This document shows positions 19,962 to 47,564 of a stretch of 64,000 nucleotides of DNA, piece by piece; position 1 is the first letter of the stretch, and every line of letters starts with the position of its first letter. Location of the stretch: positions 512,001 through 576,000 of the forward strand of contig CAWIBO010000005.1 of assembly GCA_963834385.1 (NCBI GenBank), in the 5' to 3' direction. Made by a program: the position numbers and the translations under genes. The notes below the pieces were generated by a model that did no database searches, was not told where the DNA came from, and was given only the letters and a program-made list of their open reading frames with translations. The DNA comes from an uncultured Verrucomicrobiae bacterium. GTDB taxonomy: Bacteria; Verrucomicrobiota; Verrucomicrobiia; Chthoniobacterales; UBA10450.

Positions 19962-20218
19962 TCTACTCGTGCTCGTAATCGCGCCCCCCTCTTCCCCGGG
20001 GCGGATGTGAACGGTGATCAGTGATCGGTAATCAGTTCCCCCCCACGATTCACGATTCACGCGCCCGCCCCTCCCCTCTCCACTTAAAGCTTAACCACTT
20101 AACACTGAAAACTTCGCAAAGCATCCCGAGCGCGCGAGGACTCCAGACAACCACGGAGCGCGGCCGTCGGACACGCCCTCGCCGACTCAAAACTTAATCA
20201 CTTAAAACTTAAATCTTT
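19962..20218. repeat. Composite simple-repeat spacer, copy 1
   Basis: Ordered modules CTCGTG/CTCGTA, cttccccggggcgg, GTGA(A/T)C(G/A) x4, CACGATT x2-3, CACTTAA tract, degenerate catcc.gagcgc..gagga unit, second CACTTAA tract. Confidence 0.85.
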
Positions 20219-20227
20219 CCGGCCGCA

Positions 20228-20560
20228 TCAATGCATCTGCAGCCGAAGAGTTTCAGCAATCTTGCGTGCTATGGCTACCCGCCGCGGCGCGGTCACCTTG
20301 CCGCGCCGCTCTCCAAATCCTGATTTCGGCAGCAGATACATCACGTCGCAGCGGACTGCGGTCTTCCAATCGAGACCATCGGCACCATTGAGGATCACTT
20401 CGTTCTTTTTCGCTTCGCGATTCACTTTCGCCGAAGTGCAGATCAGCGCATTCACATGGTCGAGATCGCCGTTTAGACAGCGTTCATCATTTGAGATGAT
20501 AACCGCGGGATGCGGCTTCTCCTCCTCGAAAGGAAAGAGATAAATCTCCCACTGCCTCAC
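20228..20560 (-). CDS. Type II toxin, PemK/MazF family
   Basis: WEIYL..F...KPHPAVIISND pattern; GTGA overlap with the antitoxin stop. Confidence 0.8.
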   Translation of the reverse strand: MRQWEIYLFPFEEEKPHPAVIISNDERCLNGDLDHVNALICTSAKVNREAKKNEVILNGADGLDWKTAVRCDVMYLLPKSGFGERRGKVTAPRRVAIARKIAETLRLQMH

Positions 20561-20799
20561 TTTACAATCTTCCGCGCTGACCGCGCGGCGAGCTTGTTCG
20601 ACTCCTTCGACTCGGACTTGCCGTAGCAATCGTCAAAATACCCATGCGGACGGATCGGCACGGGCTCAGGAATCTCCAGCCGCTTGAGGACGAGGAGCTT
20701 GGATTTGCGCACGATGACGATCTGTTCGCCTTCCAGTGCCCGGTCCGCGATTTCCCCGAGTCGTTGTTTCGCTTCGCTAATCGAAACCGTTGCCGGCAT
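20557..20799 (-). CDS. Type II antitoxin, Phd/YefM family
   Basis: VSISEAKQRLGEIADRALEGEQIVIVRK, a Phd-like N-terminus. Confidence 0.75.
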   Translation of the reverse strand: MPATVSISEAKQRLGEIADRALEGEQIVIVRKSKLLVLKRLEIPEPVPIRPHGYFDDCYGKSESKESNKLAARSARKIVK

Positions 20800-20815
20800 G
20801 GTCCATTCTGGTCCA
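20799..20815. promoter_or_regulatory. Putative TA autoregulatory operator
   Basis: Two TGGTCCA near-palindromes with 10-bp periodicity abutting the antitoxin start codon. Confidence 0.45.
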
Positions 20816-20878
20816 GTTCCAGACTAAAACAAGACTTCATTCCGTCTTCGGGAGTGCGCAAATGCTCGTGCCGGCCGC

Positions 20879-21243
20879 CCGGGGCGGCGGTGAGATCGGT
20901 GATCAGTGATCGGTAATCAGTTCCCCTCCCCACGATTCACGATTTAACGATCTAACGATTTAACGCGCCCCTTCCACTCGTGCTCGTGCTCCTACTCGTG
21001 CTCGTAATCGCGTCCCCCTCCCGTCTTCCCCGGGGCGGATGTGAACGGTGATCAGTGATCGGCAAACAGTTAATCCCTCGTTAAAGCTCAATCACTTAAC
21101 ACTTAAAACTTTCGCGAAGTCATCCTGAGCGCAGCGAAGGACCCCCCAAACAACCAACGAACCCCGCCCCAAAACTCGCCCACGGACGGCCAAACCACTT
21201 CCCCACCCACTTAAAGCTTAACACTTAACCACTTAAAACTTCC
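20879..21243. repeat. Composite simple-repeat spacer, copy 2 (with partial internal duplication 20879-20965)
   Basis: Same module order as copy 1; includes gtcatcctgagcgcagcgaaggacccc. Confidence 0.88.
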
Positions 21244-21244
21244 C

Positions 21245-45127: not shown

Positions 45128-45202
45128 CCTTACCGGACGAGACCTGCTCCGGCCGGGGCGATGATCGAACATCCGGGCCGCTCGCGTGTCTCATTTCTCT
45201 CT

Positions 45203-46189
45203 ATGAAATCGACCCAGGAGATCACCCAGCAGGTCCAGGAACTCAGTCAATGGATCCCGATCCTGCGCGCAGAAGTCGGCCGGGTCGTCATCGGTCAGCG
45301 ATACCTGGTCGACCGCCTCCTCCTCGGCCTGCTCGCCAATGGACATCTGCTCCTCGAGGGCGTGCCCGGCCTGGCCAAGACGCTCACCGTCAAGACCGTG
45401 GCTTCCTGCATCCAGACCGGCTTCCAGCGCCTTCAGTTTACTCCTGACCTGCTTCCCGCCGATCTCATCGGCACCCTGATCTACAATCCGCGCAGCGGCG
45501 AGTTCACCACCAAGCTCGGTCCGCTTTTCTCGAACCTGATCCTGGCGGACGAAATCAACCGCGCCCCAGCCAAGGTCCAGAGCGCTCTTCTGGAAGCCAT
45601 GCAGGAAAGGCAGGTCACGCTGGGCGACCAGACCTATCCCCTGCCCGATCCGTTCCTGGTCCTCGCCACGCAGAACCCGCTGGAACAGGAAGGCACCTAC
45701 CAGCTCCCGGAAGCGCAGCTCGACCGTTTCATGTTGAAGCTGAATGTCGGTTATCCCCAGAAATCGGAGGAACGCAGCATCCTCGACCTCATGGCCACCT
45801 CGGCCCCGAACCTGCAAGTCTCGCCCGTGGTCGATCCCAAGCAGATCGTGGCGGCGCGCGAGATCGTGAATAGCATCTACATCGACGACCGGGTGAAAGA
45901 TTACATCGTCGACGTGGTTTGGGCGACGCGCGAGCCGGCCTCCTACAATCTCAAGCTTGATGGCCTGATCCGTTACGGGGCCTCCCCCCGCGCCACGATC
46001 TACCTGGCCCTGGCGGCCCGCGCCCACGCCTTCCTCAACGGCCGCGGTTATGTCACCCCGCAGGACATCAAAAGCATCGGCACCGATGTGCTCCGGCATC
46101 GGGTCATCGTCAGCTACGAGGCCGAGGCCGAGACCATCACGAGCGAAACCATCATTGACCGCATTTTTGCCGGATTGCCCGTGCCGTGA
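45203..46189 (+). CDS. moxR: MoxR family AAA+ ATPase
   Basis: EGVPGLAKT, FTPDLLPAD, DEINRAP and LPEAQLDRF motifs. Confidence 0.95.
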   Translation: MKSTQEITQQVQELSQWIPILRAEVGRVVIGQRYLVDRLLLGLLANGHLLLEGVPGLAKTLTVKTVASCIQTGFQRLQFTPDLLPADLIGTLIYNPRSGEFTTKLGPLFSNLILADEINRAPAKVQSALLEAMQERQVTLGDQTYPLPDPFLVLATQNPLEQEGTYQLPEAQLDRFMLKLNVGYPQKSEERSILDLMATSAPNLQVSPVVDPKQIVAAREIVNSIYIDDRVKDYIVDVVWATREPASYNLKLDGLIRYGASPRATIYLALAARAHAFLNGRGYVTPQDIKSIGTDVLRHRVIVSYEAEAETITSETIIDRIFAGLPVP

Positions 46190-46197
46190 TTGGGAAT

Positions 46198-46225
46198 GTG
46201 ATCAGTGAACCGTGAGCAGTGATCT
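46198..46225 (+). repeat. GTGATCA-type heptamer tract, left arm
   Basis: gtgatca gtgaacc gtgagca gtgatct. Confidence 0.75.
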
Positions 46226-46227
46226 GT

Positions 46228-46668
46228 ATGTCCGCTGTAAAATCGTTTCGAGAACTCAATGTGTATCGTACTGCCCGTGAGGCGGCGGGGCTGATTTTTT
46301 CTCTTTCAAAGCAGTTTCCCGCTGAAGAGCGCTTCTCCCTGACCAACCAAATTCGGAGAAGTTCACGAGCCATCAAGGCCATGCTCGCCGAAGCATGGGC
46401 CCGGCGGAGATACAAGGCCGCTTTCATCAACAAGATCGACGAAGCGTTGGGCGAAACCTATGAAACGCAGTCATGGCTGGACGACGCTCTCGATAGTTCT
46501 TACATCACCCGCGCCGATTTCGACATTCTCGATCAGCACTACGACGCAATCGGCGGAATGCTTTCGCGGATGATCGATCGTGCAGAAGATTTCTGCAAAA
46601 ATCTGCCGGCGACCGATTACCGCTCCGTCGTCCGCGAGGAGGAGGTCAGTCCGATCACCGACCCCTGA
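46228..46668 (+). CDS. Four-helix-bundle protein (23S rRNA IVS-protein/bAvd-like)
   Basis: SFRELNVY...FPAEERFSLTNQIRRSSR....AEAW.RRRY..AF..K...A.GE..ETQSWL pattern. Confidence 0.9.
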   Translation: MSAVKSFRELNVYRTAREAAGLIFSLSKQFPAEERFSLTNQIRRSSRAIKAMLAEAWARRRYKAAFINKIDEALGETYETQSWLDDALDSSYITRADFDILDQHYDAIGGMLSRMIDRAEDFCKNLPATDYRSVVREEEVSPITDP

Positions 46669-46679
46669 TCACCGTTCAC
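46652..46679 (-). repeat. GTGATCA-type heptamer tract, right arm (inverted)
   Basis: Reverse complement reads gtgaacg gtgatca ggggtcg gtgatcg. Confidence 0.75.
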
Positions 46680-47564
46680 ATGGAGACAACAGAGATCCTC
46701 AAGAAAATCCGCGCCCTGGAACTCAAGACCAAGGGTCTCGTCCAGACCGCCTTCGCCGGCGAATACCATTCCGTTTTCCGCGGGCGCGGGATGAACTTCG
46801 AGGAGGTGCGCGAGTATCAGCCCGGCGATGAGATCCGCGCCATCGACTGGAATGTGACCGCACGCCTCGGTACGGCCTACGTCAAAAAATTCACGGAGGA
46901 ACGCGAGCTGACCGTGCTCCTGGTCGTGGACGTGAGCGCCTCGGGTGATTTTGGCTCGCGCAGTCAGTCGAAACGCGAGCTCGCCGCCGAAGTGGCCTGC
47001 CTTCTTGGCTTCAGCGCTATTCGCAACAACGACAAGGTCGGTCTTCTCCTCTTCACCGATGTGGTCGAGCTCTTCATCCCGCCAAAGAAGGGACGCTCGC
47101 ACACCCTGCGCATCATTCGCGAGATCCTCTTTCATCAGCCCCAGCGCCGCGGCACTGCCCCGGCGGAGGCCCTCGATTACCTGAACAAGGTGATCACGCG
47201 GCGCGCCGTCGTCTTTTTCATTTCGGATTTTCAGGCGCCCGACTTTTCCCAAGCGCTCGCCATCAGCGGCCGTCGTCATGATTTCATCGCCGTCCACGTC
47301 GAGGACGAGCGGGAGGTGGACCTGCCTGATGTCGGCATCATCATGCTCCAGGACGCGGAGACGGGGGAACAGATCGAGCTGAACACCGCCGATAAGTCCG
47401 TCCGCGCGCGTGTCCGCGCCCAGGCCGAGGCCGAGCGCGAAGATCTCTTTCGCCTCCTGCGCCGGAACAACATCGACGCCATCTCCCTCCGGACCGGGCA
47501 GGATTACCTCCCGGCTCTCCGGGCCTTCTTCAAGCAGCGCGAGCGCCGTCTCGCCATCCGATGA
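46680..47564 (+). CDS. DUF58 domain protein
   Basis: F.EVREYQPGDEIRAIDWNVTAR motif, in a moxR operon. Confidence 0.92.
   Translation: METTEILKKIRALELKTKGLVQTAFAGEYHSVFRGRGMNFEEVREYQPGDEIRAIDWNVTARLGTAYVKKFTEERELTVLLVVDVSASGDFGSRSQSKRELAAEVACLLGFSAIRNNDKVGLLLFTDVVELFIPPKKGRSHTLRIIREILFHQPQRRGTAPAEALDYLNKVITRRAVVFFISDFQAPDFSQALAISGRRHDFIAVHVEDEREVDLPDVGIIMLQDAETGEQIELNTADKSVRARVRAQAEAEREDLFRLLRRNNIDAISLRTGQDYLPALRAFFKQRERRLAIR

What the first reader, a model, noticed from the sequence alone, without database searches (positions are those of the whole stretch)
19962..46681. Candidate system: four-helix-bundle cassettes bracketed by inverted heptamer arms, with the same heptamers stacked as gene-free spacers elsewhere
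Seen: two diverged four-helix-bundle genes each fill an intergenic gap of a conserved operon and each has 4-6 tandem 7-mers upstream and the same 7-mers inverted downstream (AATGACG family at gyrB|gyrA, GTGATCA family at moxR|DUF58). The 17-mer atgtgaacggtgatcag, the reverse complement of 46665-46681, recurs exactly at 20005-20021 and 21039-21055. Those copies lie inside spacers that stack several different 6-7-mer families (GTGATCA, CACGATT, CACTTAA, CTCGTG). Known: this fold includes the 23S-rRNA IVS proteins and the DGR accessory protein bAvd, which form pentamers; bAvd binds nucleic acid. Inference: each paralog may recognise its own heptamer tract in RNA or DNA (about five repeats per pentamer), or the unit may be a transposase-free mobile or intervening element whose arms pair in the mRNA. 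The gene-free tracts would then be scars or trans-acting targets.
Basis: partly seen in the sequence, partly recalled or inferred. Interest (0 to 1): 0.82.

Follow-up and report, generated by a model that had tools for sequence, protein, structure and literature searches.

The report
Heptamer-armed gene cassettes and gene-less copies
A small gene of long-unknown function sits in operon junctions between mirror-image runs of a 7-base repeat, and the gene-free runs of such repeats scattered through the genome look like its non-coding offspring, which links an orphan protein family to unexplained bacterial heptamer repeats.

Summary
Both genes are TIGR02436/IVP four-helix-bundle genes that fill a stop-to-start junction between inverted repeat arms; the gyrB|gyrA copy has one frameshift in this assembly. 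The layout is general: 250 of 328 related loci have matched arms, against 14 of 120 controls. Relatives show the same junctions empty, holding gene-less hairpins with the same arms, or holding GxxExxY or GIY-YIG cassettes. The gyrB-type cassette occupies 7 different junctions. Gene-free tracts keep cassette polarity (40 of 43 after stops, 14 of 15 before starts). For the gyrB-type unit they are abundant almost only where the cognate gene is found (9 of 11 genomes against 0 of 29); two further families gave only weak support. A published Xanthomonas heptamer tract overlaps the start of the crystallised IVP gene xcc0516. Best reading: an IVS-type selfish cassette with REPIN-like gene-less derivatives; protein-repeat binding is inferred, not shown. 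This scan found the cassette class before on other DNA (43 notes).

The parts
37205..37240 (+). upstream (G/A-rich) arm of the gyrB|gyrA cassette, family F6, begins at the gyrB stop
37241..37670 (+). four-helix-bundle (TIGR02436) gene, read in two frames that switch near 37440-37447 in this assembly
   Evidence: 69% and 84% identity of the two parts to the intact relative in L044
37669..37721 (+). downstream inverted arm, ends 6 nt before the gyrA start (37728)
46187..46226 (+). upstream arm of the moxR|DUF58 cassette, family F1/F12, overlaps the moxR stop
46219..46668 (+). intact four-helix-bundle (IVP) gene; likely ATG at 46228
46647..46681 (+). downstream inverted arm, holds the gene's stop and abuts the DUF58 start
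19941..20227 (.). gene-free mosaic spacer 1 between converging UDG and PemK-family stops: hexamer, F1, F0 and F10 tracts plus a REP-like hairpin
20228..20799 (-). Phd-like antitoxin and PemK/MazF-family toxin pair lying between spacers 1 and 2 (cargo or neighbour, not part of the repeat system)
20800..21244 (.). gene-free mosaic spacer 2, same modules plus an octamer tract

Best explanation
An IVS-type selfish cassette family with gene-less offspring. SHOWN: the unit is upstream stop, G/A-rich arm (about 4 units), IVP gene, complementary arm, downstream start. It is gained and lost at operon junctions, and one subfamily keeps one repeat unit at many sites. Gene-free tracts use the same units in the same polarity. 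PREDICTED: in the transcript the arms pair and loop the gene out, bringing the host stop and start codons back together, so the insertion is tolerated, as with IVS stems in 23S rRNA. INFERRED: each IVP pentamer binds the single-stranded repeat of its own family, as the homologue Avd binds flipped-out RNA bases between protomers, and this favours copying or keeping arms and empty hairpins at new stop/start positions. Catalysis would come from host enzymes, since I know of no catalytic function for the family. Repeated arrival of different families at the same gene ends builds the stacks, and the window's three spacers are local duplicates of one such mosaic. It works like a REPIN-RAYT pair without a transposase.
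For: 250 of 328 loci with matched arms against 14 of 120 mismatched pairs. Arm duplex -42.6 against -16.2 kcal/mol; arms closed in the MFE of 70 of 84. gyrB|gyrA in 30 genomes: 2 IVP cassettes, 2 gene-less hairpins with the same arms, 5 empty. F6 cassette at 7 junctions; the sister subclade lacks F6 arms. Unit identity 0.67-0.92 for proteins 60-90% identical at different junctions, while fourfold sites are at 0.28-0.34. Polarity 40 of 43 and 14 of 15. F6 hairpins at 20 or more hits: 9 of 11 such genomes carry the cognate gene, 0 of 29 others. Xanthomonas tract #15 overlaps the xcc0516 start (PMC4692102 supplement 2); Xcc0516 is 2GSC, TM 0.91 to the window protein. Avd-RNA contacts: 10.1101/2023.10.23.563531.
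Against: No residue-base pair passes family-wise correction in two tests. F10 test confounded by the REP-like core, and F1 test weak: 3 of 3 cognate genomes against 8 of 37 others have a hit, but two of the three have only one. The largest gene-free family, F0 (59 of 303 tracts), has no two-armed cassette in this 89.6% complete assembly. moxR cassette arms do not pair in its own MFE (z -0.30). No sense-strand wobble bias (111 against 135). No downstream partner is listed for the xcc0516 tract. Coxiella S23p seems unexpressed and decaying (PMC4990558). Slow change of a multi-copy paired repeat could mimic protein constraint. F6 thresholds were set after seeing the data, and kin are not independent.
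Confidence: 0.55

Rival explanations
1. Passive scars. Cassettes arrive by homologous recombination or an unrelated enzyme, arms are kept only for pairing, and gene-free tracts are deletion scars later multiplied by slippage and gene conversion. The protein does not read the repeat.
For: No code found; gene-less hairpins at the very junction where relatives hold the cassette (L042, L057); an armless gene remnant (L086); shared linkers show local duplication of the window spacers; GxxExxY and GIY-YIG genes use the same architecture with other arms.
Against: 23-58 F6 hits per genome against 1-3 genes, almost only where the gene is found; unit kept past synonymous saturation, across junctions and phyla.
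Confidence: 0.22
2. Host regulatory network. IVP is a TRAP-like ring that binds its tract in mRNA, autoregulates itself through arm pairing, and controls operons that carry gene-free tracts (coupling, Rho access to the C-rich arm, 3' end protection). The tracts are selected targets.
For: Strict polarity at stops and starts; Xanthomonas tracts lie in stable loci and most are transcribed (PMC4692102 abstract); the upstream unit is only 10% C.
Against: Sites are not conserved among relatives; the whole window mosaic is not found in 40 relatives, only 25-50 nt modules; neighbouring genes are functionally mixed.
Confidence: 0.15
3. True mRNA intervening sequence. RNase III cuts the paired arms and releases the gene, and the main effect is to split the operon mRNA.
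For: The Coxiella IVS has heptamer repeats, a 28-bp stem and is cut by RNase III (PMC4990558); long stems predicted in 70 of 84 cassettes.
Against: It does not explain one-armed or mixed stacks; the window spacers and the moxR cassette do not form the stem. It can hold alongside the best explanation.
Confidence: 0.08

Closest known systems
ORF-bearing 23S rRNA intervening sequences (Coxiella burnetii helix 45, Leptospira; S23p/IVP, PF05635/TIGR02436; PMC4990558)
   Same: Same protein family and fold, terminal inverted repeats, heptamer repeats just upstream of the start codon.
   Different: Here in mRNA operon junctions, up to 15 paralogues per genome with family-specific units, and many gene-less copies; RNase III cutting untested.
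Heptamer simple-sequence repeats of Xanthomonas and Nostoc (PMC4692102), Beggiatoaceae (PMC4679880); cyanobacterial STRR (recalled)
   Same: Intergenic, four units preferred, G-rich strand after stops and C-rich strand before starts, often inverted pairs, mixed assemblages.
   Different: The passages I read propose G-quadruplexes or translational control and name no cognate gene. Here 18 families coexist and most tracts (194 of 303) belong to families that arm a cassette in the same genome.
REPIN-RAYT / REPtron systems (PMC3733652 passages; REPIN details recalled)
   Same: One gene flanked by its repeats, plus many gene-less hairpins whose abundance follows the gene.
   Different: IVP is a four-helix bundle, not a HUH tyrosine transposase; arms are tandem arrays, not single palindromes.
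DGR accessory protein Avd (4DWL, 8UB7; 10.1101/2023.10.23.563531)
   Same: Same fold (TM 0.82), pentamer, RNA binding shown for Avd.
   Different: About 10% identity, below the Avd cut-off (24.9 against 80 bits); no reverse transcriptase or TR/VR seen at the two cassettes.

Membership tests
TIGR02436 / PF05635 IVP proteins | HMM score above curated cut-off | tested here: met
   83.1 against 24 and 92.3 against 33.8 bits; gyrB copy 31.6 bits
TIGR02436 / PF05635 IVP proteins | four-helix bundle like 2GSC/2RLD | tested here: met
   pLDDT 94.7, four helices, TM 0.91 to 2GSC
TIGR02436 / PF05635 IVP proteins | homopentamer | not tested
   2GSC and 2RLD entries hold 5 chains; no complex job was run
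23S rRNA IVS | located inside a 23S rRNA gene | tested here: not met
   flanked by gyrB/gyrA and moxR/DUF58; Rfam finds only a tRNA in 19500-47000
23S rRNA IVS | terminal inverted repeats that close a stem | tested here: inconclusive
   met for the gyrB cassette (z -2.08) and 70 of 84 relatives; not in the MFE of the moxR cassette
23S rRNA IVS | excision by RNase III | not testable with these tools
   needs RNA end mapping
REPIN-RAYT | HUH tyrosine transposase in the cassette | tested here: not met
   only IVP families hit
REPIN-RAYT | gene-less repeat abundance follows the cognate gene | tested here: inconclusive
   strong for F6, weak or confounded for F10 and F1
DGR Avd | Avd HMM cut-off and adjacent reverse transcriptase | tested here: not met
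   24.9 against 80 bits; neighbours are housekeeping genes
Intergenic heptamer SSRs (PMC4692102) | about 4 units, G-rich strand after stop, C-rich strand before start | tested here: met
Intergenic heptamer SSRs (PMC4692102) | G-quadruplex formation | not tested
   not assayed or predicted; most of the 18 family units printed lack a run of three G

The most novel reading that the evidence does not exclude
IVP pentamers are sequence-specific readers of 6-8-nt repeats and are the missing factor behind bacterial heptamer repeats in general (Xanthomonas, cyanobacteria, Beggiatoaceae). Each paralogue drives a transposase-free, possibly RNA-templated, spread of its own arms into stop/start junctions. 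GxxExxY and GIY-YIG cassettes compete for the same slots, and DGR Avd would be a captured member.
Probability: 0.35. Interest if true: 0.9.

Novelty: new variant of a known kind. Interest (0 to 1): 0.72.

Why it matters
It joins two old open questions, the function of the S23p/IVP pentamer and the origin of abundant intergenic heptamer repeats, into one testable claim with natural cognate and non-cognate pairs in a single genome. If binding is specific, it gives a family of small programmable-looking nucleic-acid-binding rings, a transposase-free route for selfish DNA into essential operons, and a likely ancestral role for DGR Avd.

Tried and rejected
Residue-base code: branch co-change over 178 loci gave max z 3.58 against a family-wise 4.38; independent pairs gave max |z| 2.74 against 2.79. 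Power is limited (4-23 pairs per trait, uncertain phase across deep clades), so a code is not excluded. Five repeats per pentamer: mode 4 (partly shaped by my chaining rule). Stop codons in the arms as the purpose: only half of upstream units contain one. Sense-strand G-U bias: none. Window spacers as hairpins: rejected; 9 of 22 other stacks reach z of -3 or lower. Known RNA family: none. Sequencing runs: no RNA holder listed; one soil DNA run with a 0.06 share; laying it was uninformative for the frameshift or empty sites. F10 co-occurrence test was confounded by the REP-like core of the query. The first broad alignment was too diverged for locus scans. No complex prediction was run, since a pass would follow from 2GSC/2RLD. 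Literature searches found no paper linking IVP genes to genome-wide heptamer tracts; most subscription journals are not searched.
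Full report
Observation. Both genes belong to TIGR02436/PF05635. 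The moxR copy models as a four-helix bundle with TM 0.91 to the Xcc0516 pentamer 2GSC and 0.82 to Avd. Each gene runs from the upstream stop to the downstream start between inverted arms. The gyrB copy switches frame once near 37440-37447, probably an assembly error, since gyrB is also split; this is unverified. Period-7 tracts number 103 in the genome against 3-4 for periods 5, 10 and 11. The 17-mer has 3 copies genome-wide, but two come from one duplicated module and its unit variants are common. Repeat families are named F0-F17 as derived; F6 is the gyrB-type unit and F1/F12 the moxR-type unit.

The genome. It is a Chthoniobacterales-like Verrucomicrobium by its closest named hits, 89.6% complete, with 9 IVP loci and 3 GxxExxY loci. 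A de novo scan of periods 7 and 8 gave 18 families, 303 tracts and 173 clusters, 53 of them with two or more families. It found both arms at 6 of 9 IVP loci, one arm at moxR, none at two (one uses hexamers), and both arms at 1 of 3 GxxExxY loci. 194 of 303 tracts belong to families that arm a cassette in this genome. The largest family, F0 (59 tracts), does not have a two-armed cassette here, though relatives have F0-armed genes.

Same junctions in relatives (classes by eye, one example of each of three classes family-tested). gyrB|gyrA, 30 loci including the window: 2 IVP cassettes, 2 gene-less hairpins with the same F6 arms, 6 GxxExxY-type, 3 REP-like hairpins, 1 mixed heptamer scar, 9 sulfotransferase-type inserts, 2 other, 5 empty. 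moxR|DUF58, 30 loci: 3 armed IVP, 1 armless remnant, 7 GIY-YIG/REP cassettes, 5 REP-containing gaps, 1 other, 13 short gaps. Four of these 60 loci come from unpublished genomes (G002, G007, G014), which also sit among the negatives of the co-occurrence tables below; those rows need the depositors' permission. The cassettes are therefore not fixed, and several unrelated gene-plus-arms units share these slots.

The family. From 370 HMM hits I kept 328 after dropping partial, duplicate and contig-end rows; 6 loci of unpublished genomes were left out. 250 of 328 have matched inverted arms, against 14 of 120 mismatched pairs. Periods are 7 (188), 8 (54), 6 (7) and 9 (1), with 21 changes on the tree against 55-60 for shuffles. 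About 160 of the loci were selected for likeness to the moxR subfamily, so the sample is biased. Among 178 heptamer loci, unit similarity rises from 3.4-3.6 of 7 below 55% protein identity to 5.9 above 85%, and it is nearly the same for different junctions. For pairs at different junctions, fourfold-degenerate sites are at 0.27-0.34 while unit identity is 0.52, 0.67, 0.77 and 0.92 at 50, 60, 70 and 80% protein identity. The F6 cassette lies at 7 junctions in the family, and its sister subclade lacks F6 arms. Arms pair at -42.6 against -16.2 kcal/mol and close the MFE in 70 of 84 (every third locus). The gyrB cassette does so, the moxR cassette does not. Relatives on mobile replicons are few: 22 plasmid records and 19 viral loci.

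Gene-free tracts. 42 of 157 non-cassette clusters abut a called stop (background 5.3%), and 40 of 43 such ends start with an upstream-type arm; 14 of 15 ends before a start are downstream-type. Large stacks follow stop codons elsewhere in the genome. The three window spacers follow the same rule, share linkers and a REP-like hairpin, do not fold better than shuffles, and are not found as a whole in 40 relatives. The two exceptions are 72% and 87% complete. IVP richness alone does not explain it: G011, G013, G021 and G024 have 9-15 IVP matches but 0-3 F6 hits. F10 was confounded and F1 weak.

Against a simple recognition model. Two phylogenetically controlled tests found no residue-base pair, so I could not reproduce the code claimed in note e1-1469936. 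Copy number peaks at 4. There is no sense-strand wobble bias.

Literature. PMC4990558 (passages): the Coxiella IVS has heptamer repeats before S23p, a 28-bp stem, RNase III excision and a decaying ORF. PMC4692102 (abstract, section 13, passages, term search of 6 supplements, part 1 of 6 of supplement 2): 186 Xanthomonas tracts, four units preferred, the same polarity, 70 cases of inverted pairs, many at operon junctions; row 15 lies 6 nt after XCC0517 and overlaps the XCC0516 start, with no partner listed; the main text has no hit for S23. PMC4679880 (passages and supplement term search): heptamer repeats, no IVP mention. 10.1101/2023.10.23.563531 (passages; supplement not seen, and it holds the Avd contact residues): all five Avd protomers contact an RNA stem-loop with bases flipped into crevices. 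PMC3733652 and PMC10910872: passages only. Searches found no paper making the link. REPIN, TRAP and STRR details are recalled. The scan itself holds 43 notes on the cassette class; a search for the Xcc0516 link found none.

Verdict. A real, widespread IVS-type cassette outside rRNA, with gene-less copies that follow its units and polarity and, in the one clean test, its presence. It works like a REPIN-RAYT pair but is not a member, and it is not a 23S IVS by location. Loop-out by arm pairing is predicted; protein-repeat binding and the copying step are inferred. New variant of a known kind, interest 0.72.

Noticed in passing
gyrB|gyrA in relatives (L055, L056, L059, L063, L051): GxxExxY/PDDEXK_3 gene with inverted arms of about 9-nt units fills the same junction; only L055 was family-tested.
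   Followed up: partly
moxR|DUF58 in relatives (L070, L075, L079, L088, L093, L096): A GIY-YIG gene flanked by REP-like hairpins fills the same junction (only L070 tested). The passages read of PMC3733652 say this REP class lacks a dedicated transposase.
   Followed up: partly
L427:245-3750 (G000:C5:81245-84750): Integron-like integrase (PF13495+PF00589) followed by three co-oriented multi-family stacks that separate small genes.
   Followed up: no
window 20228-33494: Rhs gene (28761-33494, minus strand) followed by an array of small orphan genes with internal duplications and a Phd/PemK pair; the three mosaic spacers bound its last genes.
   Followed up: partly
G000:C2:898769 and L037, L151, L155, L156: One IVP clade (L037, L151, L155, L156) uses 6-nt arms with reversed polarity (C-rich upstream); the G000 copy is split in this assembly, and 28 such hexamer tracts occur in G000.
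   Followed up: partly
G000 whole genome: Tracts are unevenly spread: 0 on C1 and up to 54 per 100 kb near the ends of C5 and in polysaccharide loci.
   Followed up: no
window 34463-37205: gyrB is split over several frames; the assembly looks indel-rich.
   Followed up: no
L039, L041 and 7 more relatives: An insert of about 790 bp at gyrB|gyrA; in L041 it is an Stf0-like sulfotransferase gene.
   Followed up: partly
L321-L315 region of the protein tree: Octamer arms arise in several separate IVP clades, with no associated residue found.
   Followed up: partly
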